Assembly: GCA_944388805.1 (NCBI GenBank)
Contig: CALXKE010000003.1
Coordinates: 7,885-71,884 of the forward strand
DNA: 64,000 nucleotides
Direction: 5' to 3'
Source: an uncultured Clostridia bacterium
Lineage (GTDB): Bacteria; Bacillota; Clostridia; TANB77; CAG-508
Made by a program: the position numbers and the translations under genes
Shown here: positions 1,845 through 58,858 of the stretch, piece by piece
Position numbering within the stretch: the first letter of the stretch is position 1
How the letters are laid out: each line of letters opens with the position of its first letter
The notes under the pieces: model-generated
Databases searched by the model: none
The model's input: only the letters and a program-made list of their open reading frames with translations
What the model was told of the DNA's origin: nothing

Positions 1845-2032
1845 CTTTTATCAAAAGAACAGACCTATTCATATATATTATATTTTAAGCGGGTTTCGTG
1901 GGGACCGACACGCTACATACTGTTAATAAATCAACGACAGTCCCGTGGGAGTTGATTTATGTACAGTATGTAAAGTGTTGGGATAGCGAAAAATATAATA
2001 TATATGAATAGGTCTGCTCTTTTTGAATAAAG
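1845..2032 (+). repeat. About 190-bp rod-like fold-back element
   Basis: Outer arms AAAAGAACAGACCTATTCATATATATTATATTTT / AAAATATAATATATATGAATAGGTCTGCTCTTTT; inner arms CGACAC-TACATACTGT-ATAAATCAAC / GTTGATTTAT-ACAGTATGTA-GTGTTG. Confidence 0.85.
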
Positions 2033-2110
2033 GTAATTACACTGTTTTTATTTACTTTATCGACAAATTATGATATCATATAGATATGATTTTAATTTCG
2101 GAGGTAAATA

Positions 2111-3649
2111 ATGAAAGAAAATGAATTAATTTTAATCTTAGACTTTGGTGGACAATACAATCAATTAATTGCAAGAAGAGTTAGAGAATGCAATGTATAT
2201 TCTGAAGTTGTACCATACAACATTTCTATCGAAAAAATCAAAGAAAAAAGTCCAAAAGGAATTATCTTTACAGGTGGACCTGCTAGTGTTTATGGAAAAG
2301 ACTCTCCTAAATGCGCAGAAGGGATTTTTGATTTAGGTATTCCTGTTTTAGGAATTTGTTATGGTATGCAATTAATGACTTATACTTTAGGAGGAAACGT
2401 ATCAAGAGCAAATACAAGAGAATATGGAACAACAAAGGTAAATATTGATAACACCTCTTCCCTATTTCAAGGATTTGAAACAACAAATGATTTCTTAATG
2501 AGCCATACAGACTTTGTATCTGAAGTACCAAATGGTTTTAAAAATATTGGTTCAACAGACCATTGTCCAAATGCCGCAATGGAAAATGCAGAGAAAAAAT
2601 TATATGGTATTCAATTCCATCCAGAAGTAAATTTATCTGTAAATGGAACACAAGTAATTAAAAACTTCTTATTTAATATTTGTGGTTGTTCTGGAGATTG
2701 GCAAATTTCTTCTTTTGTAGAAGATAGCATTAAAACTTTAAAAGAAAAAATTGGAGATAAAAAAGCATTATGTGCTCTATCTGGTGGTGTTGATTCATCT
2801 GTTGCTGCTGTATTGTTACATAAAGCAATTGGCAAAAACTTAACATGTATCTTTGTTGACCATGGTCTACTTCGTAAAAATGAAGGTGACGAAGTTGAAG
2901 AAGTTTTCAGAAATCAATTTGATATTAATTTAATTAGAGTAAATGCAAAAGATAGATTTTTAGCAAAACTTGCTGGTGTTACAGACCCAGAAAGAAAAAG
3001 AAAAATCATTGGAGAAGAATTTATTAGAGTTTTTGAAGAAGAAGCAAAGAAAATTGGAACAGTAGACTTTTTAGTACAAGGTACTATCTACCCTGACGTT
3101 ATCGAAAGTGGTTTAGGAAAAAGTTCTGTTATTAAAAGTCATCACAATGTTGGAGGTCTTCCAGACTATGTAGATTTTAAAGAAATTGTAGAACCTTTAA
3201 GAAATCTATTTAAGGACGAAGTTAGAAAAACAGGACTAGAATTAGGGATACCAGAAAACTTAGTATTTAGACAACCATTCCCTGGACCTGGACTAGCTAT
3301 CAGAGTCATTGGAGATATCACTGATGACAAATTAGACATCTTAAAAGAAGCAGACAGTATTTTTAGAGAAGAAATTGCAAATGCTGGCCTTCATAAATCT
3401 ATCAATCAATATTTTGCTGTACTAACAAACCTAAAATCTGTTGGTGTTATGGGTGATGAAAGAACTTATGATTATACCATTGCCCTACGTGCAGTAGAAA
3501 CGACAGATTTTATGACAGGTGTTTGGAGTAAAATACCTTATGAAATATTAGAAAAGGTTTCTTCAAGAATTGTAAATGAAGTAAAGCATGTTAATAGAGT
3601 GGTTTATGATATTACTTCAAAACCACCTGCAACTATTGAATGGGAATAA
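2111..3649 (+). CDS. guaA: GMP synthase (glutamine-hydrolysing)
   Basis: [50 protein letters not shown] and C-terminal KPPATIEWE. Confidence 0.99.
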
Positions 3650-3761
3650 TTTGCGAGGACATTTTTTGACAATAAATATAAAATATGGTATAATATTATG
3701 TAGAGTGAATAAAACATTATAGTTCTTTTTAACTCAAGAAAAATAAAGGAGGGGTTGTATT

Positions 3762-5219
3762 ATGAAGAAAAGTTCGTTTATTTCTATGAAAAAAATATTA
3801 GCAATTTTTATTTTAGTAATTATGGTGATTACACCTATAACAAGCCAAGCAGCATTTAGTTTTTGGCCATTTGGAAACAGAGACAATGTAAACACTGCTG
3901 TAGATAATAAGTATAGCGATATTGATGATTATAAATCATTCTTAAATGATTCAAAAAATTACTTACAAGGCATTGACGAAAACACGAGTATTGAAGACAT
4001 GAAAATCAATATTATTGATAAGATTACAGAACTTCAAGAAAATTATAGTGATTCAAGTGCTATTCCATATATATCAAACAAAATTTTAAATGAAACAATT
4101 TCATCAGATGAAACAGATCCTAGTAGCTTCTTAGATTCTATTCAATCTGTAATTCAATCTGCACTAGGAGATACAAGTATAGCTTTAAACAGCTTAGAGC
4201 CAAATGTTGTTGTTGATGATATGGTTGCAACAACTGCTGGTAAATTATCAGGAGAAGCATATGCAGTTAATCTAAGTGGTAATATCTACTATGCTAACCC
4301 AGATGCAAATGGTAACCCAACTTCAAACAAATGGGTTGTATTAGTACATGGATTCATGATGAATGGTCAAGCTATGGCAGATGCAATTGGTAGTATGTAT
4401 ATTGATCAAGGATTTAACATCTTAGCACCTGACTTAAGAGGATTCGGAAATAGTGGCGGTAACAAAGGTAAAGGTGGTATGGGATATCTAGATAGTCTTG
4501 ATGTTTGGGATTGGTTAACATATCTAAATGAACACTATACATGTGATGAAGTTATTGTTCATGGTGTATCATTAGGTGGTGCTACAACATTATTCTTATC
4601 AGGACTAGAAGTAGATGGTAAAACACTTAAAGATCAAAACATTATCGGATTAGTAGATGATTGTGGTTACACTTCTATGACAGGAATTGTAGAAGACTTA
4701 TTAAATACTTTAGGAAGTAATGAATTAGTAGCAAAAATACTTGGTATATTTGATGTAACAGATTTATCACAAGTTATTAATAGAGATACCATTAAAGACA
4801 TGTTAATTAATCAAGTAGATGTTGGTTTAACAGAAGAAAACTTTGATGAACATGAAAATGCATTAACAAGCTTAGAAAAATGTCAAGTACCAATACTAAT
4901 TATACATGGTACAAGTGATACAACAGTACCTTTTGAAAATAGTACAAGAGTATATGAAACAGCAATGAATAATCCAAACATTCCTTATGTGCAAAGATTT
5001 GAAGCTGAAGGAGAACAACATGCATTCATCGTCTTAGGTAACAAAGAAAATGTATACGAAGGACATGTAGATAACTTTATTATGCAAGCTGAAAAGGTTG
5101 CTAATGGTGAGCAAATAGATAAAGTATCAGATTATCAAGAAGAAGAAGCTGGAGAAACATCTTTAATTAGCGGATTGATTAAAGCCCTAAAATTAATTAA
5201 AAATATGTTTGGCTTCTAA
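3762..5219 (+). CDS. Secreted alpha/beta-hydrolase
   Basis: Signal peptide ending SQA-A; VHGF oxyanion motif, GVSLG nucleophile elbow, HGTSDTTVP and a C-terminal His (EQHA). Confidence 0.85.
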   Translation: MKKSSFISMKKILAIFILVIMVITPITSQAAFSFWPFGNRDNVNTAVDNKYSDIDDYKSFLNDSKNYLQGIDENTSIEDMKINIIDKITELQENYSDSSAIPYISNKILNETISSDETDPSSFLDSIQSVIQSALGDTSIALNSLEPNVVVDDMVATTAGKLSGEAYAVNLSGNIYYANPDANGNPTSNKWVVLVHGFMMNGQAMADAIGSMYIDQGFNILAPDLRGFGNSGGNKGKGGMGYLDSLDVWDWLTYLNEHYTCDEVIVHGVSLGGATTLFLSGLEVDGKTLKDQNIIGLVDDCGYTSMTGIVEDLLNTLGSNELVAKILGIFDVTDLSQVINRDTIKDMLINQVDVGLTEENFDEHENALTSLEKCQVPILIIHGTSDTTVPFENSTRVYETAMNNPNIPYVQRFEAEGEQHAFIVLGNKENVYEGHVDNFIMQAEKVANGEQIDKVSDYQEEEAGETSLISGLIKALKLIKNMFGF

Positions 5220-5236
5220 AGTATAGAATATTTATA

Positions 5237-5270
5237 AAAGACGGTTTTCTATTTCAGGATTCCGTCTTTT
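5237..5270 (+). terminator. Intrinsic terminator
   Basis: AAAAGACGG...CCGTCTTTT followed by a T-rich tail. Confidence 0.65.
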
Positions 5271-9660: not shown

Positions 9661-9909
9661 CTCTCCCCTCCTTTATCTTTCAGTAAAATATAAAATTTTT
9701 ATACTAGAAAGTATAAGTGATTTTACTGTAATTGCTTTCCTGCTCATTACTTTATTATTATATGTATCTTTTAAAATTAATATACTTAGATAAAAGTCAG
9801 GTTCTTATATATTATAAGAACCTGACTTAACAAGTATTAATTTTTTTATTTTATAGAAAACATCAACTTTCATCTTTACCACATATAAGATTTTTCTTAT
9901 AAATTTATT

Positions 9910-15635: not shown

Positions 15636-15807
15636 GGGACAAATCTCGCTTTGAGAGAACTTTTTTCTGTTTTTCTCATTTAACTATATAAATTAAGTTC
15701 TTGAAAAAGCGTAAAGATTTGTCGACGTGAAAAATTGCAAGCAATTTTTCTGTGCAATATTATTTTTTATTATATAGAACATAAAATGTTCTATATAATA
15801 AAAAATA
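15636..15807 (+). repeat. Structured intergenic repeat, family A copy 1
   Basis: GGGACAAATCTCGCTT.GAGAACT...AAGTTCT.GAA.AAGCGTAAAGATTTGTCGACG.GAAAAATTGC..GCAATTTTTCTGTGCAA is shared with 25793-25927; followed by a long AT-rich hairpin. Confidence 0.9.
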
Positions 15808-15934: not shown

Positions 15935-16054
15935 TCTTCTACACCCTTTCTTACTATATACCATTCATTCAAAAGTTGCAATAGAAAATGATTAAATTTA
16001 TACAAAAAATCCCTCTTTTTTCAGAGGAATCTTGTTATTATAAGGTCATTTTTC

Positions 16055-17812: not shown

Positions 17813-17835
17813 ATCTCTCTTTCTTTTAACTATTA

Positions 17836-19176: not shown

Positions 19177-19264
19177 AATTCCTCCTTAATTTATTATCCA
19201 TTCAATTAATATTTCGCGCTATTAATATTGATTAAAAACAATTTTCTCGCATATATATTTTCAT

Positions 19265-19318
19265 AGGTCTGTCCCTTTCGTTCCATTTTGAAACGATTTG
19301 GAACGTCCCTAACGTTCC
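19265..19318. repeat. GTCCC-core short palindromic (REP-like) doublet
   Basis: AGGTCTGTCCCTTT (exact reverse complement at 21365-21378) and hairpin GGAACGT-CCCTA-ACGTTCC. Confidence 0.65.
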
Positions 19319-21177: not shown

Positions 21178-21190
21178 ATTTTCCTCCTTT

Positions 21191-21378
21191 GGGGACATGT
21201 CAAATTGGACATTTAACAAGAACAATAGCGGGCTTTTTTAACATTTCTCTGTTTATAACATTTTTTGAAGCCCGTGTCATTGTTCGGCGCCAATTTTACG
21301 TAAGTAAAATTGTGTGCAATGTTTGCAGTTTTAGAAAAATCTTTGATTTTTCTAAAATTGTCCAAAAGGGACAGACCT
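21191..21378 (+). repeat. Structured intergenic repeat, family B copy 1, bracketed by GGGAC motifs
   Basis: AACAATAGCGGGCTTTTTTAACATT...AAGCCC.GTCATTGTTCGGCGCCAATTTTACGT.AGTAAAATTGTGTG is shared with 58725-58826; plus a GAAAAATC..GATTTTTC hairpin. Confidence 0.9.
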
Positions 21379-21428
21379 CTATTTTTCTTTTATCATTTCT
21401 GACAATTTTGCTAGATTTTTAGATACCC

Positions 21429-21944: not shown

Positions 21945-22093
21945 TTCAATACCTCCTCGTATATATTATTGCGTAACTACATAGATTATATCAGACTAAC
22001 ATTTTTTATACAAGTTTTTTTTGTTTTTATATTGACATTTTTGTCGAAAAATGTGAAAATTTAATTATGAAAACATGAAAGGGGGATTAATTT

Positions 22094-22669: not shown

Positions 22670-22725
22670 TGAGAAACATGCATAATTTTATGCATGTTTC
22701 AACAAGTATTAAATCAAATACATTA

Positions 22726-22764
22726 GCCAAAAAAATAGCAAGGAAACTTGCTATTTTTTGGCTT
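22726..22764. terminator. Bidirectional terminator between convergent genes
   Basis: AGCCAAAAAAATAGCAAG-GAAA-CTTGCTATTTTTTGGCT; a second hairpin lies at 22673-22700. Confidence 0.7.
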
Positions 22765-22809
22765 TAGACTCTTTATATCTTAAGATACTTTATAAAATAT
22801 CAAAAGTTT

Positions 22810-24771: not shown

Positions 24772-24986
24772 ATATCCTCCTCCTTCTAGCTTCTTCCACA
24801 TCATTTTAATACATTATTTAAAAAACACTTTATTTTTTAATTTTGTTTTATTTCTTTTTACTAATAAGTTTAACATATTATTTATATCATATTTTATGTC
24901 AAAATACAATAAATAAAAAAATCCAAATTATTAATCTCAATAATAATTTGAATTTTCTATTTTTGTTAATATATGATTTTCTCATT

Positions 24987-25792: not shown

Positions 25793-25979
25793 GGGACAAA
25801 TCTCGCTTCGCGAGAACTTTTCTCTACTTTTCTAATTTAACTACATTTTAACTACATGTATTTAAGTTCTCGAAGAAGCGTAAAGATTTGTCGACGCGAA
25901 AAATTGCGTAGCAATTTTTCTGTGCAACGTTGTTTTTTTATTGAATAGGAAAAATCGATTTTTCCTATTCAATAAAAAA
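25793..25979 (+). repeat. Structured intergenic repeat, family A copy 2
   Basis: Matches 15636-15757; followed by the perfect palindrome TTTTTTATTGAATAGGAAAAATCGATTTTTCCTATTCAATAAAAAA. Confidence 0.9.
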
Positions 25980-26029
25980 GCATGCATGATTTCTATGCAT
26001 ACTTAAACAATTCTTATTTTTCTTTTATT

Positions 26030-31573: not shown

Positions 31574-31757
31574 GAAAAGAGCTAATATATAAATATTTTT
31601 TAATTCTCGGTTATCCTACATTACGTTTAACAAATTCTAAAAATAAAACTGTAACAATACCCGGAAACAGGACCCTTTACAGTTTTATTTTAAGAATTTA
31701 TAAAACTATTTCGGTCACATTCGAATTTTAAAAAATATTTATGTATTAGCTCTTTTC
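31574..31757 (+). repeat. About 185-bp rod-like fold-back element
   Basis: Outer GAAAAGAGCTAATATATAAATATTTTTTAA / TTAAAAAATATTTATGTATTAGCTCTTTTC; inner AAATTCTAAAAATAAAACTGTAA / TTACAGTTTTATTTTAAGAATTT; GC-rich apical loop. Confidence 0.85.
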
Positions 31758-36433: not shown

Positions 36434-36558
36434 TTGCTTCACCCCTTATATTATTTTTGTAATTTTACTATATCATGTAAATCTTAATAATATTTTTAGG
36501 GATTCTTAAATTTACTTGAATAATTTCTTAAGAAAAATTAATGTCCAATTGAAGGCAT

Positions 36559-36871
36559 TTTGAGGGAAATTGGGGACGGACTCATTTTTCCCTTTTTCAA
36601 GTTTGATTAAAACGAAAAATATAGAATATAAAAAAATGAAACGATTTTGCGTATCTAAATTTGAAATTAGAAATTCTAAAGAAAAGCATGAGGACTGCTC
36701 ATTTTGCTTAAGATTTATAGCAACAATGAGAGAGGCGCATGTTTTTCTTGTAGAAATTTCTATGAAAATTTAGCTTATACAAAATTGTGTAATGGCTTTA
36801 TATTCTATATTTTTTTATAGTTTCTCAATTTAAAAAAGGGAAAAATGAGTCCGTCCCCAATTTCCCTCAAA
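36559..36871 (+). mobile_element. 313-bp fold-back/MITE-like element with 39-bp perfect terminal inverted repeats
   Basis: TTTGAGGGAAATTGGGGACGGACTCATTTTTCCCTTTTT (36559-36597) is the exact reverse complement of 36833-36871. The interior also pairs segment by segment, and no credible protein is encoded. Mobility is inferred. Confidence 0.75.
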
Positions 36872-43888: not shown

Positions 43889-43908
43889 TTAATTTCATTC
43901 CTTTCTTT

Positions 43909-44052
43909 AGGCACAAATTACTTGGAAAAGAATTGTGCTTTTGGCTAGGCAGACAAGTCCAAAATCAATGAGGCGTGCTTTTGCACGTTGATTTGATTTT
44001 GGATGAAGTCTAACAACGCCAAAACGCAATTATTTTTCAAGCTTGTAAACCT
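43909..44052 (+). ncRNA. Structured intergenic element, family C copy 1 (candidate ncRNA or ssDNA motif)
   Basis: Multi-stem hairpin whose internal loops are nearly identical to 55352-55476 while the stems covary. Confidence 0.65.
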
Positions 44053-44114: not shown

Positions 44115-44141
44115 CTTACATTTATCTTACATTTTTGTAAG
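44115..44141 (-). promoter_or_regulatory. BceR/GraR-type response-regulator binding site
   Basis: Palindrome CTTACA-TTTT-TGTAAG (44126-44141) plus a direct-repeat half site CTTACA (44115-44120); -10 TATAAT at 44082-44077 with no good -35. Confidence 0.7.
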
Positions 44142-44147
44142 GTAATT

Positions 44148-44281
44148 GTGCGTTAACGAAATCAAAGATTTCGACGCACACATGTGAAGACTGCTTCGCA
44201 GTACTTCACAAATATAGGAAGCCTACCTTGTTGTATACGAAAAAATCCACATAGGGTCAAGATAAAAGTCGATTTCCTATA
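44148..44281 (+). repeat. Cluster of GC-rich hairpins (mosaic element)
   Basis: GTGCGT..CGAAATC-AAA-GATTTCG-ACGCAC; TGTGAAG-ACTGC-TTC-GCAGT-A-CTTCACA; TATAGGAA...TTCCTATA. Confidence 0.7.
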
Positions 44282-44290
44282 CAATAAAGA

Positions 44291-44324
44291 AAAGGTAAGA
44301 TATTTTTTGTATCTTACCTTTAAA
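44291..44324. repeat. Terminator-like hairpin, left copy of a direct repeat flanking the TA cassette
   Basis: AAAGGTAAGATATTTTTTGTATCTTACCTTTAAA versus 45856-45890. Confidence 0.75.
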
Positions 44325-47604: not shown

Positions 47605-47731
47605 TTTTTAATGATTCCTTTCTCAATATTATATTTACTAAATAGAAAATCAATTTTTCTATTTAGCAGAATACATTAAACTTTTCAATCTTTTTCTTTT
47701 TTCATTTCATTGTTATTATACGAATTTTTAT

Positions 47732-51712: not shown

Positions 51713-52657
51713 TTAATCATTCATTTCTTTTTCTCCATTATACTCATTTACCAAATATAATGGTCTATCTTTACTTTCATTAAATATTCTTCCTAAATAT
51801 TCTCCTATAATTCCAAATAATAATATTTGTACGCCAGAGAAAAATAGAATCAATAATATAATTGCTTGATATGCTTGGATCATTGTACTTGTTATAATAC
51901 ATTTTGCAATTACATATACAAAATATACAAATAAAATAATAAATGTTGGTATACTAATATATGTTGATATTCTAAGTGGTGATGTCGTAAATGATGTAAT
52001 TCCATCTATTGCTAAATCTATTAGCTTTTTATAATTCCATTTTGTTTGCCCTGCAATTCTTGGGTCTCTATCATATAGTACTTCTTTTTTCTTGTATCCT
52101 ATCCAACTAAACATACTTTTTGAATTTCTTTGAGATTCTCTCATTTTTCTCAAGGCATTCACACATCTTCTGTCTAATAATCTAAAATCTCCTGTGTCTT
52201 GTTGAATTGGTACATTTGTTAAATGTTGCAAAACTCTATAATACATTTTTGATGTAAATTTCTTTAGCCAAGTTTCTCCTTTTCTTGAACTTCTTTTGGC
52301 ATAAACGTCATCATATCCTTCTTCCCAGTATTTTACCAATTCAGGAATCAATTCTGGTGGATCTTGTAAATCGGCATCCATAAAAATAACACAATCTCCT
52401 GTTGCATAATCTAATCCTGCAATCATAGCAATTTCTTTTCCAAAGTTTCTAGAAAAATCAACATAGCATATTCTATTATCTTTTTCTCTATATTCTTTTA
52501 TTAAATTAATGGTATTATCTTTACTTCCATCATTTACAAATAAAATTTCAAATTCATAATGCTCCATAGAACTCATTAATTTTTCTAATCTTTCATATAA
52601 ATGTGGTAATGATTCTTCTTCATTATATGCTGGTATAATTATGGTTATTTTTTTCAT
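51713..52657 (-). CDS. GT2 polyprenol-phosphate glycosyltransferase (GtrB/CsbB-like)
   Basis: IIPAYNEEE, VNDGSKD, FSRNFGKE, DADLQDPPE and TGDFRLLDR; two C-terminal TM helices. Confidence 0.93.
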   Translation of the reverse strand: MKKITIIIPAYNEEESLPHLYERLEKLMSSMEHYEFEILFVNDGSKDNTINLIKEYREKDNRICYVDFSRNFGKEIAMIAGLDYATGDCVIFMDADLQDPPELIPELVKYWEEGYDDVYAKRSSRKGETWLKKFTSKMYYRVLQHLTNVPIQQDTGDFRLLDRRCVNALRKMRESQRNSKSMFSWIGYKKKEVLYDRDPRIAGQTKWNYKKLIDLAIDGITSFTTSPLRISTYISIPTFIILFVYFVYVIAKCIITSTMIQAYQAIILLILFFSGVQILLFGIIGEYLGRIFNESKDRPLYLVNEYNGEKEMND

Positions 52658-52689
52658 TTTATTCTCATTCCTTTCTTAAGGTCAAAATT

Positions 52690-52715
52690 GGTTAAAAAAG
52701 AATTATTTCTCAACC
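52690..52715 (+). repeat. Minimal or empty version of the family C element
   Basis: GGTTAAAAAAGAATTATTTCTCAACC resembles the outer arms of 55352-55476 joined at a single AATT, in the same SD context. Confidence 0.55.
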
Positions 52716-52726
52716 CTTTCACTTTT

Positions 52727-53152
52727 CTACCCATTTACTTCTTTCTTTGTTTTAAATGCAAAAAATTTACTTATAAAAAAGTTTAGAATGACAACAATCA
52801 CTGTAATGGTTACTTTTGTGATGACATATTCTACATGTAAGACTGTATAAAGTAAAAATACACCTGCCATTTCTAATACCATCGTAAACAATCTACCTAA
52901 TATAAATTTAAAAAATTCTGTCCATTTTTCTTTTGCAGTTTCCGCTGTAGAATTAAATACCATTTTACGATTGGTAAAATAAGCAAACAAAATAGAAATA
53001 ATAATTCCTATTGTACTTGCTATATTTCCTTCAACCTGAAATGCTTTTACTAATATTGTTGAAACTCCTATATTAATGAGTGTTGTTAATACACCAAATA
53101 TTAAATATGATATGGTTTCTCTTGTACATAATTTTTTTATAATTTTTTCCAT
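52727..53152 (-). CDS. GtrA-family flippase-like protein
   Basis: YLIFGVLTTLIN, FAYFTNRKMVF and VVILNFFISKFFAF. Confidence 0.92.
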   Translation of the reverse strand: MEKIIKKLCTRETISYLIFGVLTTLINIGVSTILVKAFQVEGNIASTIGIIISILFAYFTNRKMVFNSTAETAKEKWTEFFKFILGRLFTMVLEMAGVFLLYTVLHVEYVITKVTITVIVVILNFFISKFFAFKTKKEVNG

Positions 53153-53297
53153 TTTTCTTCACTTTCTTATTATTTTCTTTATTAAATTTAAAGTTCATTC
53201 CATATTTTTTTATTTGTATCTTCTTTATATTTTTCATTATCATTCGTTAAAATCGTTACTATTATATCAATAAATATATTTCTTGTAAAGCATATGA

Positions 53298-54207
53298 TTA
53301 TTGCTTATTCTTAAAATAATAACTTTTTATCATTCCTGGAATGAATAATAATATATATAATATTTTGTTTTCTATTCCTTTTATGTTTCCTATGTTATAT
53401 TGTTTTGTTAAATAACCAAATAAAATATAATGTTTCATAACATATAACCTCTTTTTTAGAGAAATTCCTCGCATATCCTGTTGTTCTAAAATCTCTTTGA
53501 AATATGCAAAATGTCCATATGGATTTTCTTTAAAAACTTTTCTAATATTTTTGGTATATCCATCTTCTTTGTAATCGCATATCATAAGTGGTTTATTGAT
53601 ACATTTCATTTTATATTTCAAATCCATTTCATGATACATCCTGGCTTCTGTTGAAAACTTTTCATGATTTTCAATTTTATACTGATACTGTTTTCGGATA
53701 TCTGCAAAAAATACAATTGCTTTTTCTCCAGTTTCTCCGCTCTTTAAAATATAAATCAAACATGGTGGTCTCTTCTTTTCGAAATAAGTTTCCAATATTA
53801 TTTCCGTTTAAATCATATTTTAAAAAGCACAAACCATATAAATCATTTCTCTCTCTTGTTTCATAATAAGCTTGTAAAATATCATAAAATGCATTATCTG
53901 AAAATATATCATCAGAGTCACACTCTACAATTAAATCTCCATTAGCATATTGAACAACATTGTTAATAGCTGACATTTTTCCTTGATTTTTTTGTTTATG
54001 ATATTGTATTTCTATCTTTTTTTCATTTATGTACTGATGGATTACTTCTTCTGTATTATCTGTTGAACCATCATCTATAACAAGCCATTGTACTTGTACA
54101 CTTTGCCTTACTTCATCATTTAGTTCTAAGTTTTTCACAATGCTGTTGTATAAATTACCAAGCATATTGGCCCTATTATATGTTGGTGTAATAATAGATA
54201 ATTTCAT
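53298..54207 (-). pseudogene. GT2 glycosyltransferase split by a +1 frameshift (pseudogene, sequencing error or programmed frameshift)
   Basis: N-half has ITPTYNRA, DDGSTD and CDSDD. Skipping base 53739 in TTT AAA GAG C GGA GAA joins FDLYFKE to GETGEKAIVF, giving a 302-aa protein. Confidence 0.8.
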
Positions 54208-54209
54208 AA

Positions 54210-55316
54210 TTATTCTTCCTTTAATAATTTTTCTAATTTTTTGATGATATGCTGATTATCATAAGTTTGTTTCTTCTCATCAAAAGTTTTTATATTATTT
54301 TCAATGATATATTTTAATTTATTATAAATTTCATGTTCATCGTTTTCTACAATCACTGTATTTCTATAATTTTCAACAGCTTCTCTTGCTGCTGTATTGG
54401 TAATAATAATTGGCTTATTCAAAATTTTTGCTTCTTCTAGCACCATACCATATCCTTCAAATTTAGAAAGTAAGCAAAAAATATCTGCTTGTTTCATATA
54501 TGGATATGGATTTTCTTTGGCACCTAATAAGAAAAATGTTTCTTGTAAATGTTCGTCTTTTATTAATTTTTCCAATTTTTCTTTTTCTGGTCCATCACCA
54601 ATAATATAAAATTTATTCATATAATGATTTGCAATTAATTCTCTATGAATACGAATTAATCTATCAATTCCTTTTTGTTCTACTAATCTTGCTACTGTCA
54701 AGAAATTGATTTGGTGATTATCAAAAGAAAAGTCTATTTTTTCTTCTGCTTTTTCTATTACTTTCTGTGCATTTATATAATTATAGATAACCTCTTCTGT
54801 TGGTTTCATATTCGGATATCGTATGTCAAACACTTCTTGATTATCTTTACTAACAAATATCAGTTTTTGATATTTGTTATAAATCCTTCTATCTATGAGT
54901 AATTTTAGTTTTGCTTTTAATCCATTTCCATATACTTTTGAAATATCATTATGAATCCAAGCTATTTTCTTTGTATTTTTATTTTTTGTGCTAAATAGCC
55001 TTGTAATTGGTCCTTCTAAGAAAGCGATTTCTATATCATAATTACCTTGAATATATTTTTTATAATATTGTTTTTGGAAGCATAAAATCTTTAATGGTAT
55101 TTTTATTTTTTCAAACTGACTAAATCTCTTGTATGGTTTGTCAAATATTCTTTTTACTTTTATCTTATCATTTAAACTTTTTTCTAACTCACCTTTTCCA
55201 TAAATCGTAAATATCGTAATGTCAAATGTATCACATAAACGATTTGCCATATCAACCAATACTCTCTCTGCTCCGCCTAACGTTAAACTCGTTATTCCCA
55301 ATATTATCTTTTTCAT
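54210..55316 (-). CDS. GT4-family glycosyltransferase
   Basis: GGAERVL, AWIHND, VARLVEQKG, NPYPYM and SKFEGYGMVLEEA. Confidence 0.92.
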   Translation of the reverse strand: MKKIILGITSLTLGGAERVLVDMANRLCDTFDITIFTIYGKGELEKSLNDKIKVKRIFDKPYKRFSQFEKIKIPLKILCFQKQYYKKYIQGNYDIEIAFLEGPITRLFSTKNKNTKKIAWIHNDISKVYGNGLKAKLKLLIDRRIYNKYQKLIFVSKDNQEVFDIRYPNMKPTEEVIYNYINAQKVIEKAEEKIDFSFDNHQINFLTVARLVEQKGIDRLIRIHRELIANHYMNKFYIIGDGPEKEKLEKLIKDEHLQETFFLLGAKENPYPYMKQADIFCLLSKFEGYGMVLEEAKILNKPIIITNTAAREAVENYRNTVIVENDEHEIYNKLKYIIENNIKTFDEKKQTYDNQHIIKKLEKLLKEE

Positions 55317-55351
55317 ATTTTCATGTATTCCTTTCTTAATGCTTCAAACAT

Positions 55352-55476
55352 GGTTAGGAAAGAATTAAATTTTGGCTAGGAAAACAAGTTTGAAATTTAT
55401 GAGACGTACTTATTTGTACGTTGATTAAATTTCAAATGAAGTTTGACAACGCCAAAATTCTAATTATTTTCTAACC
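55352..55476 (+). ncRNA. Structured intergenic element, family C copy 2
   Basis: Same loops as 43921-44041 (TAGG/ACAAC, AAG/TGAA, TGAG/TGAT) with compensatory stem changes. Confidence 0.65.
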
Positions 55477-56462
55477 TAAACAAATTTTTCTTGTAACTTA
55501 TCTCTTATAAATTTAATTCTCGCTAAACTTGTATAAATTTTTAATGTAATTGTATTTACAGATCTCATATATAAATTCTTTAACCCTTTTTCCTTTAAAT
55601 AGGTATTTTCCTTCCAATTTGTAAATTGTGTATTCAACGATTTCCATGCCATATGAATCATTTCTTTTCTTTCTTTTTTATTTTCAATCATTACCATTCT
55701 AAGCATAGAACTACATAAAATATATCTTGCATAAGTGTATTCTATTTCTTCTTTGTATTCTTCAAACAAATTATTTGCTTTGTAATATTCAATAACATGT
55801 CCTAAAACATCAATAATTTCTTTTGTTCTTGTATTTTGTACATTTGAGATAGAGTCTTCTCTTTGTACATAATGAATGAATGGTTTTTGAACAATTCCAT
55901 AATCATGTATCAATGGCAATAGTTTATAGAAAAACTCTACATCTTCATATCGATATCCTTTGGGAAATTCTAAATGGTTATCTTGTACAATTTCTCTTTT
56001 AATTAGTTTATTCCATGCAACAACTCTTGTATGGATAAACATTTCTTTTTTATTACTATATTGTTTTCCTTTGCTTTCTAATGTCTTATCTGGATATTCC
56101 CATAGAAAATTACATTCTACATAATCCAAATCTTCTTTTTTTGCTTTATTATACATTTCTTCATACATATTGGTTTCAACATAATCATCAGAATCTAAAA
56201 AAGCAATATATTCTCCCTTGGCATGTGGAATTGCATAATTTCTAGCATCTGATAACCCACCATTTTCTTTTTCCAAATAGATAATTTTATTTGGATATTT
56301 TTCTACAAATTGTTTGGCAATCTCCTCCGTCCCATCTTGACTTCCATCATTCACAAGCAAGATTTCAATATCTTCTAATGTTTGATTTACTAAAGATTGC
56401 AAACATTTTTCTATGTAATTTTCTACATTATAAAATGGAACAATGATACTAACCTTTATCAT
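55476..56462 (-). CDS. GT2-family glycosyltransferase
   Basis: SIIVPFYNVE, NDGSQD, NGGLSDARN, FLDSDD, WNKL and YED. Confidence 0.93.
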   Translation of the reverse strand: MIKVSIIVPFYNVENYIEKCLQSLVNQTLEDIEILLVNDGSQDGTEEIAKQFVEKYPNKIIYLEKENGGLSDARNYAIPHAKGEYIAFLDSDDYVETNMYEEMYNKAKKEDLDYVECNFLWEYPDKTLESKGKQYSNKKEMFIHTRVVAWNKLIKREIVQDNHLEFPKGYRYEDVEFFYKLLPLIHDYGIVQKPFIHYVQREDSISNVQNTRTKEIIDVLGHVIEYYKANNLFEEYKEEIEYTYARYILCSSMLRMVMIENKKERKEMIHMAWKSLNTQFTNWKENTYLKEKGLKNLYMRSVNTITLKIYTSLARIKFIRDKLQEKFV

Positions 56463-56483
56463 GATTTAACGCATTCCTTTCTA

Positions 56484-56534
56484 AGGCACAAGTACTGAAA
56501 TCTGACGACGCCAAAATTGTATTTATTTTCCAAG
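56484..56534 (+). repeat. Internally deleted family C element
   Basis: Left arm AGGCACAAGTACTGAAA and right arm TCTGACGACGCCAAAATTGTATTTATTTTCCAAG resemble the ends of 43909-44041. Confidence 0.65.
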
Positions 56535-57497
56535 TTTTTTTCTTAAACTTAAATACCATCTTATATTTAAGCTTAAAATTATTTTTCTAAATAATTGTCT
56601 TGTATCTTTCGCCTTAATATTTTTTGTCATGTTTCTTTTTCTAATTTCTTTTATATATTGCTTTTGATCCTTTTTTTCTAACGTTTCTATTTTTAATAAA
56701 ATTGCATTTGTATAATAAATTTTTAATGTTTCTGCTATTTTTTTGTTTAATTTATATCTCTCAATTTTTAATAAAGCTTCATCATATTGTTTTAGTGCAT
56801 CATTTGCTTTTTTCTTTGTTTTTTCATAACTGTCATTTCTTGTAATGCTTCCTTTTACTTGTACATAATGATATCCATAAAAATTAATAGAAATCATTGT
56901 TTTGGCAAGTACAATCACAAATGGCATTAATCCAAAATCTTCATGTTCTGTTCCAACCTTAAACTCTAATTTGTTCTTTGTAAATATCTCTTTTTTTATC
57001 ACATACACACAAGGAGAGTCTAATAAAACATCTGTTGAATATAGTTCTTCAAATCCTTCTTCTCCTGTTTTATTTTCAAATACAGGTCCACTGACTGTTT
57101 CTATGACATTTCCTTTTTCATCTTCTCTTTGCAATTTAAATTTAATTAACTCTATATCTTTTTCCATATATTGTTTTACTAAACCATATAAATGAATATC
57201 TAAGTAATCATCTGCATCTAAAAACAAGATATATGTTCCTTTTGCTTTTTTAATTCCATAATTTCTTGTATCAGCAACTCCTGTATTTTTCTTTTTGTAA
57301 TAAGAAATGATTTTAGGATTTTTTTCTTTATATTCTTGTATAATTTTATCAGATGCATCTGTACTTCCATCATTAATTAATACAATTTCCAAATCTTCAT
57401 CTTTTTGTTTTAAAACAGATTCCATACATCTTTTTAATGTTTTTTCCGCATTATATACGGGAATAATGACACTTAATTTTTTCAATATTCTCTCCAT
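56523..57497 (-). CDS. GT2-family glycosyltransferase
   Basis: SVIIPVYNAE, NDGSTD, GVADTRN, FLDADD and HED. Confidence 0.92.
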   Translation of the reverse strand: MERILKKLSVIIPVYNAEKTLKRCMESVLKQKDEDLEIVLINDGSTDASDKIIQEYKEKNPKIISYYKKKNTGVADTRNYGIKKAKGTYILFLDADDYLDIHLYGLVKQYMEKDIELIKFKLQREDEKGNVIETVSGPVFENKTGEEGFEELYSTDVLLDSPCVYVIKKEIFTKNKLEFKVGTEHEDFGLMPFVIVLAKTMISINFYGYHYVQVKGSITRNDSYEKTKKKANDALKQYDEALLKIERYKLNKKIAETLKIYYTNAILLKIETLEKKDQKQYIKEIRKRNMTKNIKAKDTRQLFRKIILSLNIRWYLSLRKKLGK

Positions 57498-57530
57498 CTT
57501 TCTTTTTAAAATATTGTTTCTAATTGAAGA

Positions 57531-57560
57531 TGTCCAAACAGAAACGTCCCCAATTGTCCG
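57531..57560. repeat. GTCC(C)-core REP-like remnant
   Basis: TGTCCAAACAGAAACGTCCCCAATTGTCCG, similar to 19300-19318 and 21191-21211. Confidence 0.45.
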
Positions 57561-57564
57561 AATT

Positions 57565-58659
57565 TTAAAATATTGTTTCTAATGTTTTTACAATGTTTTC
57601 ATTATATGTTTCATAATCAAATGAATTGTTTATTTCATATCCATTTTGTATAAATTCTTTCATTGCATTATATATAGATTGTGTATCTTTTTCTACAACC
57701 ATTCCTCTTCCGTCTTCTACTTGTTCATAATCAGATACTTTTGTCGTGATGATTGGTTTATGCAATACAAAACTTTCTAAATATACAACTGGATATCCCT
57801 CATATTCAGAAGATAGAATCACACAATCACTAATTGTAAAATAAGGATACGGATTCTTTTTTCTCCCCAAAAAGAGAATTGTATCTTCCAAGCCATATTC
57901 TATAACAAGATCTTTATATAATTTCGTATCTGGTCCATCACCAACCAATAAAATTTTAAATAGAAAACCATCTTCTTTTAATTTTTTGGCAGCTTCTATA
58001 ATTCTTGTTAACTTTTTCTGTAATTCATCATGTCTTCCTACATTTAGAAAAACTGGAATTTCTTTTTTGGCTAATTCTAATACCACTTCTTCTGTAATAG
58101 CTTCTTTTGATTTTTCTTCAAGTCTTTTTCCGTTTATCATATTGTTACATACAATAACCTTTTCTTTCATATCTGGAAAACTTTCTATAAAGTGAGTTTT
58201 TCCTTCATTTGAAACAAATATGATATGTTTAAATTCTCTGCAATGTATATTTTCAAAAAATGCAATCATCTTTTTTCTATCTCCATGATATAAACTAAGA
58301 TAATCTGCATGACACCATAATGCTGAATTTTTTGATGCTATTCTTGCCATAAAACTACTTGCTAAAGAATATGTAGCAAAGCTTGCTGAAAAGTCAAATT
58401 TGTTTTTATATTTTATGATAAATTTTATTCTATTCAATAAATTACATATCTTTCGCAAAATAACATTTTTATTGTTATTGGTGTTGTATTCTACAACTTT
58501 TATTTTGTTACTTAATCTGTCTAAAAACACACCTTCTCTTTTTTCTAATGCAATCGTTATATCATAACCTCTTTCTGATAAATCATTTACTAATGTAACA
58601 AGTGCGGTTTCTATTCCGCCTAAGTCTAAGTTATGTGTTGCAAAAAAAAGTTTTTTCAT
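57565..58659 (-). CDS. GT4-family glycosyltransferase
   Basis: GGIETAL, WCHADY, VGRHDELQK, NPYPYF and SEYEGYPVVYLES. Confidence 0.92.
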   Translation of the reverse strand: MKKLFFATHNLDLGGIETALVTLVNDLSERGYDITIALEKREGVFLDRLSNKIKVVEYNTNNNKNVILRKICNLLNRIKFIIKYKNKFDFSASFATYSLASSFMARIASKNSALWCHADYLSLYHGDRKKMIAFFENIHCREFKHIIFVSNEGKTHFIESFPDMKEKVIVCNNMINGKRLEEKSKEAITEEVVLELAKKEIPVFLNVGRHDELQKKLTRIIEAAKKLKEDGFLFKILLVGDGPDTKLYKDLVIEYGLEDTILFLGRKKNPYPYFTISDCVILSSEYEGYPVVYLESFVLHKPIITTKVSDYEQVEDGRGMVVEKDTQSIYNAMKEFIQNGYEINNSFDYETYNENIVKTLETIF

Positions 58660-58724
58660 TCATTTTCTCCTCTATTTAGACATTATTTTTTCTTTATTAT
58701 CTTATCATTATATTGTTTTTTTTT

Positions 58725-58858
58725 CAAGAAACAATAGCGGGCTTTTTTAACATTTTTCTGTTCATAACATTTCAAAGCCCACGTCATTGTTCGGCGCCAA
58801 ATTTTACGTTAGTAAAATTTGTGTGTGAAGGAAAATTACTTCCTATACAATAAAAAAG
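58725..58858 (+). repeat. Structured intergenic repeat, family B copy 2
   Basis: Matches 21217-21317; the tail TGTGAAG...TTCCTATACAATAAA matches 44183-44189 and 44274-44288. Confidence 0.9.

What the first reader, a model, noticed from the sequence alone, without database searches (positions are those of the whole stretch)
1845..58858. Window-wide system of modular, strand-polarised fold-back elements in intergenic DNA
Seen: about ten 100-310 bp self-complementary elements. Three families have two copies each: A (15636, 25793), B (21220, 58725) and C (43909, 55352, with reduced copies at 52690 and 56484). There are also unique rods at 1845, 31574 and 36559, and a mosaic at 44148. Modules are shuffled between elements. 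A and B share the layout long hairpin - TCG(A/G)CG - short hairpin - TGTG. A GAAAA(A)TC..ATTTTTC hairpin follows A2 and B1 and recurs near 47645. The tail TTCCTATACAATAAA occurs at 44274 and 58840. GGGAC/GTCCC marks many ends. The stem mismatches I inspected are mostly G.T on the + strand (A.C on the - strand), so the + strand folds better, even though it is antisense to most flanking genes. Established: REP/BIME/REPIN elements mobilised by RAYT (HUH) transposases, integron attC sites and repeated Clostridial RNA motifs have some of these traits. Inference: this is an uncharacterised family of non-autonomous ssDNA- or RNA-structured elements with a trans-acting enzyme encoded elsewhere. No such enzyme is in this window.
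Basis: partly seen in the sequence, partly recalled or inferred. Interest (0 to 1): 0.85.

Follow-up and report, generated by a model that had tools for sequence, protein, structure and literature searches.

The report
Hairpin repeat families colonising intergenic DNA
The intergenic DNA of this small AT-rich gut Clostridia genome carries several families of small hairpin-forming repeats; some belong to a known transposase-linked kind, and others, including one that sits just behind transcription terminators, are undescribed.

Summary
Every listed element is at its coordinates, folds far better than shuffles, and is multi-copy in the 2.02 Mb genome: A 23, B 8, C 8, U1 13, U2 8, M 10. Rfam gives no match even at E<=1.

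It is not one system.

(1) The rod at 36558-36871 and three solo units are terminal-inverted-repeat (TIR) copies of RAYT/TIRYT-type Y1 transposases. The cognate gene lies on contig C33, flanked by inverted copies of the repeat. Its flanking 16-mer is the commonest in the genome, at 128 copies. The repeat is abundant only in the 2 of 61 congeners that hold this gene. This explains the GGGAC ends.

(2) A and B share a three-hairpin module. It shows strong covariation (20 of 53 pairs compensated; 0 of 500 shuffles reach this) and invariant linkers. Its A-run abuts a terminator hairpin plus T-run on the other strand. That adjacency accounts for the strand polarity.

(3) C sits against start codons and supplies the ribosome-binding site. 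M supplies stop codons. U1 and U2 sit inside variable self-complementary arms.

No enzyme was found for groups 2 and 3. The G.T bias holds between lineages but not in private mutations.

The parts
1845..2030 (+). U1 element: conserved 135-nt core (1871-2005, 16-nt AT-rich inverted ends, two inverted GGGAC motifs) inside locus-specific self-complementary arms with an A-run and a T-run
   Evidence: 13 copies at 90-98% identity. Arms are 0.52 identical between copies against 0.93 for cores, and in 10 of 13 copies 22-25 of 25 arm positions pair (the window's own copy 20; the other two 16 and 17). G010 has a plain small terminator at this site.
9842..9896 (.). hairpin unit of the 'T-hairpin' family
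   Evidence: segment with 4 other intergenic hits; sequence; de novo family 1
15636..15806 (+). A1: long hairpin, GACG(T/C)G linker, short hairpin, CTGTGCAA linker, T-run, third hairpin, A-run
   Evidence: Full in G000 and G072, 3' half only in G010 and G053, remnant in G060 and G062. The 3' A-run abuts a hairpin plus T-run on the - strand.
19254..19317 (-). solo TIR unit, class 4 (GGGACG..AAAGGGACAGACC)
   Evidence: 12 other intergenic hits; sequence. The same repeat flanks Y1 genes in G072, G110 and G151.
21190..21215 (+). small GGGGAC-core hairpin unit resembling TIR class 3
   Evidence: sequence. Relatives carry full class-3 units at the same site. Resemblance by eye only.
21215..21360 (+). 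B1: same layout as A (long hairpin, TCGGCGCC, short hairpin, GTGTGCAA, third hairpin)
   Evidence: matched by model R1. Absent from G010 and G053 at this site. DNA contigs of run X9 join 21214 to 21360/21361 (weak).
21355..21380 (+). partial class-4-like unit (AAAGGGACAGACC)
25793..25983 (+). A2, with an 11-nt duplication in the loop of the long hairpin
   Evidence: It lies between the terminator-like hairpin at 26004-25978 (-) and the promoter-like site at 25747-25719 (-).
31574..31757 (.). U2 rod: AT-rich inverted ends like those of U1, inside locus-specific complementary arms
   Evidence: 8 copies. The - strand is the better folder in 8/8 copies. Flank-to-flank length is about 0 in G062 and G072, though the left flank aligns poorly. 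Arms shown.
36558..36871 (.). 314-nt REPIN-type rod ended by inverted class-1 TIR units (GGGAAATTGGGGACGGACTCATTTTTCCC)
   Evidence: The same repeat flanks the Y1 transposase gene at G000:C33. Four relatives carry other fill at this site.
43889..44040 (+). C1: hairpin element that fills the space up to the start codon of the ABC-ATPase gene 43121-43888 (-). Its - strand ends in AAGAAAGGAAT, a ribosome-binding site.
44138..44293 (+). M element: three hairpins, the last being the T-hairpin, with tail TTCCTATACAATAAA
   Evidence: 10 copies. 9 of 10 begin with a TAAG[AG]AA[AG]G motif (8 TAAGAAARGC, 1 TAAGGAAAG), and 5 of 10 lie exactly 7 nt behind an ORF end. This window copy is the one that lies against the local gene direction.
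47641..47665 (.). solo T-hairpin-like unit (AAATAGAAAATCAATTTTTCTATTT)
52658..52726 (+). reduced C unit upstream of the GT2 gene 51713-52657 (-)
55317..55475 (+). C2: fills the whole spacer between the GT2 and GT1 genes and abuts the start codon of 54210-55316 (-)
56463..56522 (+). reduced C unit upstream of the GT2 gene 55476-56462 (-)
57528..57562 (-). solo TIR unit, class 3 (TGTCC..GGGGACGTTTCT..GGACA)
   Evidence: The same repeat flanks Y1 genes in G060, G010, G053, G062, G110, G183 and G151.
58722..58858 (+). B2 with a truncated third hairpin and the tail TTCCTATACAATAAA

Best explanation
The window shows a genome-wide colonisation of intergenic DNA by at least seven families of small, non-coding repeats that fold back on themselves. 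They are of at least three kinds.

(1) REPIN-like doublets and solo units. These are terminal inverted repeats with a GGGGACG core, belonging to RAYT/TIRYT-type Y1 (HUH) transposases. The class-1 gene sits on contig C33. By analogy with REP/RAYT systems it spreads its flanking repeat as single-stranded DNA. The association is shown here; the chemistry is inferred.

(2) A and B. These are composite elements: a variable long hairpin followed by a conserved module of short hairpin, invariant linkers (GACGCG and CTGTGCAA) and a T-run/hairpin/A-run. Their structure is kept by compensatory change across species. They lie in a fixed orientation directly behind intrinsic terminators, with the A-run of the element being the T-tract of the terminator on the other strand. 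This adjacency, not a window-wide property, gives the apparent polarity against flanking genes. I infer that a structure-specific, strand-specific enzyme inserts them at 'hairpin plus T-run' sites that mimic the element's own end. That enzyme was not identified.

(3) C, M, U1 and U2. These are further non-autonomous elements with their own niches. C lies against start codons and brings a ribosome-binding site. M lies at ORF ends and brings the stop codon. U1 and U2 sit in the centre of locus-specific complementary arms.

Copies decay neutrally after insertion. Only the propagating lineages keep the fold of the + strand.
For: Copy numbers and repeat load. 67.7 kb of the 291 kb of intergenic DNA is repeated elsewhere, and 12 of the window's 40 spacers carry a segment with 3 or more other copies.

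Kind 1:
- There is a Y1_Tnp gene (E 1.4e-12). Its best NCBIfam model is 'REP-associated tyrosine transposase' (67.7 bits, E 1e-18, below the cut-off of 80). It has the motifs HLH and YIHFNP, which align to E. coli TnpA_REP 4ER8.
- Inverted copies of the repeat flank the gene in G000, in three named uncultured Clostridia/Eubacteriales assemblies (L003-L005) and in the G062 ortholog (L061).
- The flanking 16-mer is the commonest in the genome, at 128 copies. Among neighbouring GGGGACG sites there are 65 head-to-head pairs and 0 tail-to-tail pairs, with spacing modes of about 80, 155 and 276 nt.
- The 12-mer occurs 144 times in G000 and 46 times in G062, the only 2 of 61 genomes that hold the ortholog. 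Elsewhere it occurs 8, 4, 2 and 1 times, and 0 times in 55 genomes.
- 23 of 34 paralogous Y1 loci in the genus have TIRs of 25 nt or more. 21 of those 23 contain GGGAC, and four classes match repeat families of G000.

Kind 2:
- 98.6% of cells are paired against 90.2% in shuffles. 20 pairs carry compensatory change, against 9.9 in shuffles and at most 4 in the slid controls; 0 of 500 shuffles reach the observed value.
- Model R1 finds 44 matches in G000. It also matches 11 of 24 congeners, 8 of 28 genomes of other genera of the family, and 2 of 98 genomes in the rest of the order.
- The 3' flank folds with a median of -10.4 kcal/mol against -3.3 for random intergenic 50-mers (p 6e-4). The 5' flank does not differ from random.
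- In G181 and G151, 16 of 20 copies show the same adjacency, including 2 of the 4 copies that lie with the local gene direction.
- Orientation of the module in G000: 20 against, 1 with, 5 ambiguous.
- G.T against A.C: 18 against 2 cells.

Occupancy differences between relatives.

Kind 3.
Against: - No enzyme is tied to A, B, C, M, U1 or U2. None of the 40 Y1-gene loci compared carries them as flanks. B and the A tail do occur once, about 700 nt upstream of a Y1 gene (L125), but they do not flank it.
- G009 has full-length A copies, yet no RAYT-like gene was found with this query (93% complete).
- No TnpB over its cut-off and no reverse transcriptase were found. There is one IS110 gene and one classical IS200 whose end is single-copy. 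The assembly is only 83.5% complete.
- The 'empty' A1 sites in G060 and G062 keep remnants of the third hairpin. That polymorphism is loss, not proof of insertion. Clean empty sites rest on poorly aligned flanks (U2) or on short metagenome contigs laid at 90% likeness (B1).
- The strand that keeps G.T pairs is the complement of the strand carrying the terminator T-tract. By GC skew it is also the leading-strand template. This is the opposite of what the IS608 model (recalled) would predict.
- With DNA energy parameters the two strands fold equally well.
- Covariation fits a functional RNA as well as it fits single-stranded DNA.
- Gene calls are my own crude ORF map.
- G000 and G062 are close kin, so the co-occurrence of repeat and gene is one observation, not two.
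Confidence: 0.6

Rival explanations
1. A, B and U1, and perhaps C and M, are functional structured RNAs rather than mobile DNA. They would be multi-copy small RNAs or cis-acting RNA modules, such as antisense RNAs reading into gene 3' ends, insulators behind terminators, or UTR modules. Their copies would be kept by selection on RNA structure.
For: - Covariation is strong and the single-stranded linkers are invariant.
- G.U-type pairs appear on one strand only: 18 against 2 cells. The strand difference shows only with RNA energy parameters.
- Positions relative to terminators, start codons and stop codons are fixed.
- The U1 core is conserved at 0.93 while its closing stem varies and stays paired.
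Against: - There is no conserved promoter. The sequence 5' of A is unrelated between copies, and at A1 the element starts 39 nt from the start codon of a divergently read gene.
- A2 lies between a terminator and the next promoter.
- Flanking genes are functionally unrelated.
- Occupancy differs between close relatives, and internal-deletion derivatives exist.
- Private substitutions show no protection of pairing: 53 against 48.
- Distribution between congeners is patchy, from 0 to 28 or more copies.
- No Rfam family matches.
- Transcription could not be assessed, because the RNA runs were held as contigs only.
Confidence: 0.2
2. All families, A, B, C, M and U included, are substrates of the RAYT/TIRYT enzymes. 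This would make one enzyme family with many repeat classes, that is.
For: - A starts with (G)GGACAAATCT, which resembles the TIR starts GGGACAGGTCT and GGGACAGACCT.
- The U1 core holds two inverted GGGAC motifs, and GGGACCGAC recurs in the TIR array of a G203 Y1 locus.
- TCGACG and CGACGC are among the 6-mers most enriched in intergenic DNA, and both they and the TIR cores contain GACG.
- The genus carries up to 6 paralogous Y1 genes per genome.
Against: - None of the 40 Y1 loci compared is flanked by A, B, C, M, U1 or U2 sequence.
- Searches of all loci fetched up to that point for GGGGACCGAC and GGGACAAATC found them only in U1 and A copies.
- G009 has A copies but no RAYT-like match.
- The motif resemblances are only 5-9 nt long.
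Confidence: 0.15
3. The elements are not mobile. They are hairpin-rich spacers (terminators, attenuators) that look repeated because of convergence on AT-rich palindromes, or because of assembly artefacts in a metagenome-assembled genome.
For: - The genome has 28% G+C, and many spacers hold terminator hairpins.
- The assembly has 71 contigs and 4.8% contamination.
Against: - Copies share 80-98% identity over 110-190 nt, loops and linkers included.
- The same families occur in many independently assembled genomes and in public runs.
- Shuffle controls and slid controls fail to reproduce the pairing.
Confidence: 0.02

Closest known systems
REP/REPIN with RAYT (E. coli TnpA_REP, PDB 4ER8; Pseudomonas REPINs)
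   Same: - A single-copy Y1 HUH gene is flanked by inverted copies of a short repeat.
- That repeat is the commonest 16-mer of the genome (128 copies).
- The repeats are organised as head-to-head doublets that form hairpins.
- Repeat and gene co-occur across genomes.
- The Y motif is Y---NP, which the passages of PMC6006769 seen give as the class-2 signature.
   Different: - There is no GTAG tag. The unit is a roughly 35-nt TIR with a GGGGACG core in a weak 6-bp hairpin.
- The host is a Clostridia lineage.
- Passages of the bioRxiv version of Bertels et al. 2017 state that only RAYT groups 2 and 3 carry such abundant flanking 16-mers (57 and 140), and that group 1, the group found in Clostridia, has about 12.
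- The protein scores below the NCBIfam cut-off (67.7 against 80).
TIRYT / TIRtron (Di Nocera et al. 2013, PMC3733652); subclass 2.1 of Quentin et al. 2018 (PMC6006769)
   Same: - RAYT-like Y1 genes are flanked by long TIRs that share a GGGG-W-S-A-S type motif.
- TIR copies form dimers and moderately abundant families.
- The proteins are long, with a C-terminal extension (passages seen).
- Here 21 of 23 TIRs contain GGGAC.
   Different: - The class-1 core is GGGGACGG, which matches 7 of the 8 motif positions.
- The copy number is at REPIN level.
- A genome can hold up to 6 paralogues, and G000 holds at least 5 TIR classes while only one cognate gene was found in its assembly.
- The C-terminal HTH domain was not confirmed.
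- Subclass membership was not tested against reference sequences.
BIMEs of enterobacteria and BOX elements of pneumococci (BOX recalled, not from a call)
   Same: Mosaic, modular intergenic repeats built from a few hairpin modules in varying combinations. Here the T-hairpin is shared by A, B and M and also occurs as solo units; there are B-A tandems on C14 and C1; and half-elements exist.
   Different: No sequence relation was tested or is expected. The A/B module has invariant linkers, covariation across species and a fixed position behind terminators.
IS200/IS605 and their non-autonomous derivatives (PATEs)
   Same: No terminal inverted repeats, no visible target duplication, subterminal hairpins, strand-specific placement.
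   Different: - There is no conserved tetra- or pentanucleotide at the left end of A.
- There is no similarity to the end of the genome's one IS200.
- No TnpB was found.
- The better-folding strand is not the one that carries the presumed target.
Group IIC introns (recalled: they insert just behind intrinsic terminator hairpins)
   Same: Placement directly behind a terminator hairpin and T-tract, in one orientation.
   Different: There is no intron RNA structure and no reverse transcriptase in the assembly. The elements are only 110-190 nt long.
MITEs (RUP, Correia/NEMIS, ERIC, Bcr1, as listed in the background of PMC3733652)
   Same: U1 and U2 have 16-19-nt AT-rich inverted ends, sizes of 135-185 nt and copy numbers of about ten. 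C and M alter gene ends by supplying a ribosome-binding site and a stop codon.
   Different: No parent insertion sequence was found, and no clear target duplication. The flanking arms are inverted rather than direct repeats, and they differ between copies.

Membership tests
REP/REPIN-RAYT system | Y1 transposase with HUH and catalytic Tyr (Y---NP), one copy per repeat class | tested here: met
   PF01797 with E 1.4e-12. HLH and YIHFNP align to the HMH and YIYINP of 4ER8. One such gene in G000. The NCBIfam REP_Tyr_transpos model is the best hit but falls below its cut-off (67.7 against 80).
REP/REPIN-RAYT system | gene flanked by inverted copies of the dispersed repeat | tested here: met
   (35-nt inverted repeat, 94% identity). 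The same holds in L003-L005 and in the G062 ortholog.
REP/REPIN-RAYT system | flanking 16-mer highly over-represented genome-wide | tested here: met
   128 occurrences, the top 16-mer of the genome
REP/REPIN-RAYT system | repeats occur as inverted doublets (REPINs) | tested here: met
   65 +/- neighbour pairs and 0 -/+ pairs, with 32 tandem pairs at 20-70 nt
REP/REPIN-RAYT system | REP unit is a short imperfect palindrome tagged by GTAG | tested here: not met
   The unit has no GTAG. Its core is GGGGACGGACTC in the loop of a 6-bp stem.
REP/REPIN-RAYT system | the enzyme cleaves and rejoins the repeat as single-stranded DNA | not testable with these tools
   needs biochemistry
TIRYT/TIRtron | RAYT-like gene flanked by long TIRs rather than classical REPs | tested here: met
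   35-nt TIRs in G000. 23 of 34 paralogous loci in the genus have TIRs of 25-84 nt.
TIRYT/TIRtron | TIR motif GGGGWSAS | tested here: inconclusive
   Class 1 reads GGGGACGG, 7 of 8 positions. Other classes read GGGGACAT, GGGGACGT and GGGACAGG.
TIRYT/TIRtron | C-terminal HTH (DnaA_C / HTH_23 / HTH_28-like) extension | tested here: inconclusive
   A C-terminal extension of about 110 residues is present. Only weak HTH_37 and HTH_17 hits were found (E 0.08 and 0.11).
IS200/IS605-derived elements (considered for A/B) | ends related to a resident IS200/IS605, with a conserved short target 5' of the left end | tested here: not met
   The IS200 end is single-copy and unrelated. The left flanks of A are variable.
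Rfam RNA families (Clostridiales-1, RAGATH and others) | match to a curated covariance model | tested here: not met
   0 matches at gathering scores and 0 at E<=1, over the whole window on both strands
MITE (considered for U1/U2) | terminal inverted repeats, direct target duplication and a parent IS | tested here: inconclusive
   16-nt AT-rich inverted ends are present. The flanks are inverted, not direct, repeats. No parent IS was sought beyond Y1, IS110, TnpB and RT.
cis-regulatory leader or riboswitch (considered for C) | association with one functional class of downstream genes | tested here: not met
   The 10 downstream genes are an ABC ATPase, a GT1, two GT2, RecD2, RsmD-like, a pseudouridine synthase, DUF362, FtsX and a SAM methyltransferase.

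The most novel reading that the evidence does not exclude
The A/B three-hairpin module is an undescribed class of structured element specific to one family of uncultured gut Clostridia. It homes strand-specifically to the T-tract of intrinsic terminators by hairpin mimicry, because its own end is a T-run/hairpin/A-run. It is kept foldable on one strand in the lineages that still propagate, and it is moved by an enzyme that is not a RAYT/TIRYT. U1 and U2 would be a second undescribed class whose flanking arms evolve in concert: about half of arm positions differ between copies, yet the arms stay almost fully complementary within most copies. This points to fold-back copying or hairpin-templated repair during transposition.
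Probability: 0.3. Interest if true: 0.8.

Novelty: new variant of a known kind. Interest (0 to 1): 0.6.

Why it matters
REPIN-RAYT systems are studied almost wholly in Proteobacteria. The RAYT group reported from Clostridia is described as lacking abundant flanking repeats (passages seen). Only two works in the searched library use the term TIRYT.

This genus of small-genome gut Clostridia carries up to six paralogous Y1 genes per genome. Each has its own GGGAC-core repeat class, and at least one class reaches REPIN-like abundance. That makes it a natural system for asking how HUH enzymes and their repeat populations diversify together.

The A/B module is a testable case of an element that targets terminators. 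Its structure is held by covariation, yet no enzyme or RNA role is known.

Elements that bring ribosome-binding sites (C) or stop codons (M) reshape gene ends. They also break assemblies of these uncultured genomes at predictable places.

Tried and rejected
- **Rfam.** Searched at gathering scores and at E<=1. No match.
- **C as a riboswitch or regulon leader.** Rejected, because the downstream genes are unrelated in function.
- **A promoter inside A.** The consensus scan found nothing beyond shuffle expectation.
- **IS200 as the parent of the elements.** Its left end is single-copy.
- **TnpB, reverse transcriptase, IS110.** One sub-threshold TnpB-like match, no reverse transcriptase, one IS110 gene. 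None is tied to the repeats.
- **Family sequences against Y1-gene loci.** Nothing in 26 loci. In 14 further loci the only hit is a B plus A-tail copy about 700 nt upstream of one Y1 gene.
- **An autonomous A.** I looked for A arms far apart around a gene. Only an internal-deletion derivative turned up, on C17.
- **U1 arms as an independent hairpin family.** Rejected: good matches to the arm consensus occur only beside U1, with one exception at 2 mismatches.
- **attC-likeness of the third hairpin.** GTTGAAT..ATTCAAC resembles the integron core sites as I recall them. But the order is reversed and the sequence is not conserved in other subfamilies. Rejected.
- **Replichore against transcription as the cause of orientation.** I could not separate them on contigs of a metagenome-assembled genome. 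Only the terminator adjacency could be shown.
- **Transcription.** The two RNA runs laid (X15, X16) are held as contigs, cover the stretch patchily and cannot show strand or ends. No conclusion was drawn.
- **Literature on elements that target terminators.** One search gave only plant MITE papers.
- **Supplementary files.** Those of the cited papers (lists of TIRYT and RAYT sequences) were not opened. They may hold Clostridia examples that bear on the novelty claim.

Full report
**Setting.** The window is G000:C3:7885-71884 of a 2,022,615-bp assembly with 71 contigs and 28.2% G+C. The assembly is 83.5% complete with 4.8% contamination. Most genes lie on the - strand, and GC skew of the + strand is about -0.2. 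The Y1 gene's closest relatives lie in records titled uncultured Clostridia or Eubacteriales bacterium. Public runs labelled chicken gut metagenome hold up to 0.70 of the sampled words of a 10-kb stretch.

**Observation.**
- The pairs A, B and C appear as direct-repeat families in the window.
- Against the whole genome each is multi-copy. Counting copies that cover at least 60% of the query: A 23, B 8, C 8, U1 13, U2 8, M 10.
- On a crude ORF map (1824 ORFs, 1276 spacers, 291,099 nt), 67,669 nt of spacer DNA recurs in another spacer, and 44,742 nt recurs at least three times. 12 of the window's 40 spacers carry such a segment.
- De novo clustering gives well over ten families.
- Folded as single-stranded DNA, C1, C2, A2 and U1 have z-scores of -5.3 to -7.7 against shuffles.
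- Rfam gives nothing at gathering scores or at E<=1.

**Kind 1: TIR/REPIN repeats of Y1 transposases.**
- A search of the genome for PF01797 found one full gene at C33:15306-15641 (open frame 270 aa) and a fragment at the end of contig C23.
- The C33 gene is flanked by inverted copies of a roughly 35-nt unit, GGGATTTTGGGGACGGACTCAAATTTCCC. This is the unit that forms both ends of the 314-nt rod at 36558-36871.
- The protein has HLH and YIHFNP motifs that align with E. coli TnpA_REP (4ER8, E 0.007). Its best NCBIfam model is REP-associated tyrosine transposase (E 1e-18; 67.7 bits, below the cut-off of 80), far ahead of IS200.
- The 16-mer GGGGACGGACTCATTT from its flank is the commonest 16-mer in the genome, at 128 copies.
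- There are 196 GGGGACGG sites. They form 65 head-to-head neighbour pairs and no tail-to-tail pair, with spacings clustered near 80, 155 and 276 nt.
- The six 6-mers most enriched in spacers all come from this unit.
- Across 61 genomes of the genus, the 12-mer occurs 144 times in G000 and 46 times in G062, the only two genomes with this gene (91% identity). It occurs 8, 4, 2 and 1 times in four other genomes and is absent from 55. G000 and G062 are close kin, so this is one association, not two.
- 46 of 60 congeners carry RAYT-like genes, up to six each, at 30-45% identity to the C33 protein.
- Of 34 such paralogous loci examined, 23 have TIRs of 25 nt or more, and 21 of those 23 contain GGGAC.
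- Four of these TIR classes match repeat families of G000. Solo units of two of them lie in the window at 19254-19317 and 57528-57562; 21190-21215 and 21355-21380 resemble classes 3 and 4 by eye.
- It matches the TIRYT/TIRtron kind, with motif GGGGWSAS, in the passages I read of PMC3733652 and PMC6006769.
- The passages of Bertels et al. 2017 that I read say that only RAYT groups 2 and 3 have highly abundant flanking 16-mers, and that group 1, the one found in Clostridia, has about 12. Quentin et al. map group 1 to subclass 2.1 and found no REP-like sequences beside those genes. I did not test subclass membership.
- The second Y1 fragment, on C23, is a classical IS200 TnpA with a single-copy left end.

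**Kind 2: the A/B module.**
- An alignment of 22 G000 copies defines A as follows: (G)GACAAATCT.. long hairpin, GACGCG, a 9-10-bp short hairpin, CTGTGCAA, T-run, a third hairpin and an A-run, about 185 nt in all. The 5' flanks are unrelated and there is no target duplication.
- B has the same layout with a different long hairpin.
- The pattern TCGRCG-hairpin-TGTG occurs 26 times in the genome.
- I aligned 14 copies from G000 and six congeners. 53 pairs are predicted and 20 of them carry compensatory changes.
  - 98.6% of cells are paired, against 90.2% in shuffles.
  - All five measures exceed every one of 500 shuffles.
  - Slid controls give at most 4 compensated pairs.
  - The linkers stay invariant.
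- A covariance model of the 3' module (R1) finds 44 matches in G000. It also matches 11 of 24 congeners, 8 of 28 genomes of other genera of the family, and 2 of 98 in the rest of the order, with 0 to 28 or more copies per genome.
- Orientation in G000 is 20 against the local gene direction, 1 with it and 5 ambiguous.
- The reason is positional. The 50 nt at the element's 3' end, read on the other strand, is in 15-16 of 21 copies a hairpin followed by TTTTTT, and that T-run is the complement of the element's A-run.
  - The median fold energy is -10.4 kcal/mol, against -3.3 for random spacer 50-mers (p 6e-4).
  - The 5' flank does not differ from random (p 0.42).
- In G181 and G151, 16 of 20 copies show the same adjacency. 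These include two of the four copies that lie with the local gene direction.
- A2 sits between such a terminator (26004-25978, - strand) and the promoter-like site of the next gene.

**Strand polarity.**
- With RNA parameters the + strand is the better folder in most families.
- In G000 the excess of G.T is due to 1-2 fixed positions per family. Private substitutions are unbiased, at 53 against 48.
- Between lineages the bias returns. In the 14-sequence alignment, 8 pair positions have a G.U state against 1 with C.A.
- In 35 rows aligned to R1 there are 18 G.T cells against 2 A.C cells, at 10 against 2 pair positions. This alignment is fitted to the model, and the rows are related to each other.
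- With DNA parameters the two strands are about equal.
- My reading is that copies decay neutrally, and only propagating lineages are held to a fold of the + strand. This is inference.

**Occupancy in relatives.** Five congeners share 95-97% identity in a flanking protein.
- At the A1 site, G000 and G072 have the full element, G010 and G053 have only the 3' module, and G060 and G062 have remnants of the third hairpin. This shows modular loss.
- B1 is absent in G010 and G053 (14-18 nt between the flanks) and is replaced by other DNA in G060, G062 and G072.
- Short DNA contigs of run X9 join 21214 to 21360/21361 with 3-4 letters between. They were laid at 90% likeness, so this is weak evidence.
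- The U2 flanks are adjacent in G062 and G072, but the left flank aligns poorly.
- The site of the 314-nt rod holds other fill in four relatives, including a class-3 doublet in G010.

**Kind 3.**
Their - strand therefore ends in ..TTAAGAAAGGAAT.. just before the ATG.
- The ten genes behind full or reduced C copies have unrelated functions.
- G053 has a C copy in front of the ortholog of window gene 2111-3649, where G000 has none.
- M begins with TAAGAAARGC in 8 of 10 copies and TAAGGAAAG in a ninth. It lies exactly 7 nt behind an ORF end in 5 of 10, and 8 of 9 assignable copies run with the local genes. The window copy is the exception.
- The U1 core of 135 nt is 0.93 identical between copies. 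The 25 nt on either side are only 0.52 identical between copies, yet 22-25 of 25 positions are complementary in 10 of 13 copies (20, 17 and 16 in the other three, the window's copy among them).
- The U1 arm consensus is found almost only beside U1. Copies in relatives show the same pattern by eye; the printed counts there were off register. U2 behaves alike.
- I have no tested explanation for this. Candidates are insertion at the centre of hairpins, fold-back copying of one arm, or hairpin-templated repair.

**What was not found.**
- No TnpB over its cut-off and no reverse transcriptase; one IS110 gene.
- No Y1 locus is flanked by A, B, C, M or U sequences.
- G009 has full A copies, but no RAYT-like gene was found with this query.
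- The enzyme for kinds 2 and 3 is therefore unknown, and the assembly is incomplete.

**Verdict.** The remaining families are undescribed variants of small bacterial hairpin repeats. The A/B module stands out for its covariation and its terminator adjacency.

Noticed in passing
window 51713-58659: A run of glycosyltransferase genes (GT2 at 51713-52657 and 55476-56462, GT1 at 54210-55316). C-type units fill the short spacers in front of three of them. The locus looks like a polysaccharide synthesis cluster.
   Followed up: partly
window 28369-31455 (-): An ORF of 1028 aa with internal repeats of about 59 nt at spacings of 306-840 nt (families D2, D3 and D5). It is probably a repetitive surface protein.
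   Followed up: no
G000:C33:15228-16031 (L001 1423-2226): The open frame of the RAYT-like gene begins inside the left TIR. A strong AAGGAGG site lies just before the conserved N-terminal residues, with no ATG, GTG or TTG behind it, so the true start codon is unclear.
   Followed up: partly
G000:C23:1-360 (L002): A classical IS200 TnpA lies at a contig end. Upstream it has a G+C-rich hairpin and a second hairpin that covers the ribosome-binding site. The end is single-copy in the assembly.
   Followed up: yes
window 1845-2110 and its orthologous sites (L050, L054): The terminator behind gene 1296-1844 has a different stem sequence in each of G000, G010 and G053. This suggests fast turnover of terminator hairpins at a fixed site.
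   Followed up: partly
G203:C12 (L129 1341-1470 and 2315-2411): A Y1 gene is flanked by arrays of four or more tandem units of about 20-23 nt (TGGGGTCGGTCCC...). They share GGGACCGAC with the U1 core.
   Followed up: no
G029 (another family of the order): This genome has 40 matches to the third-hairpin part of A, while model R1 finds only one weak match there. The T-hairpin module may therefore have a wider and separate distribution.
   Followed up: no
window 16000-25999: Runs labelled chicken gut metagenome, from several studies, hold 0.27-0.70 of the sampled words. The best holder may be the source sample.
   Followed up: partly
G000:C14:2650-2980 and C1:22150-22485: B and A occur head to tail in the same orientation as a composite. 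The tail hairpin of B directly precedes the first base of A.
   Followed up: partly
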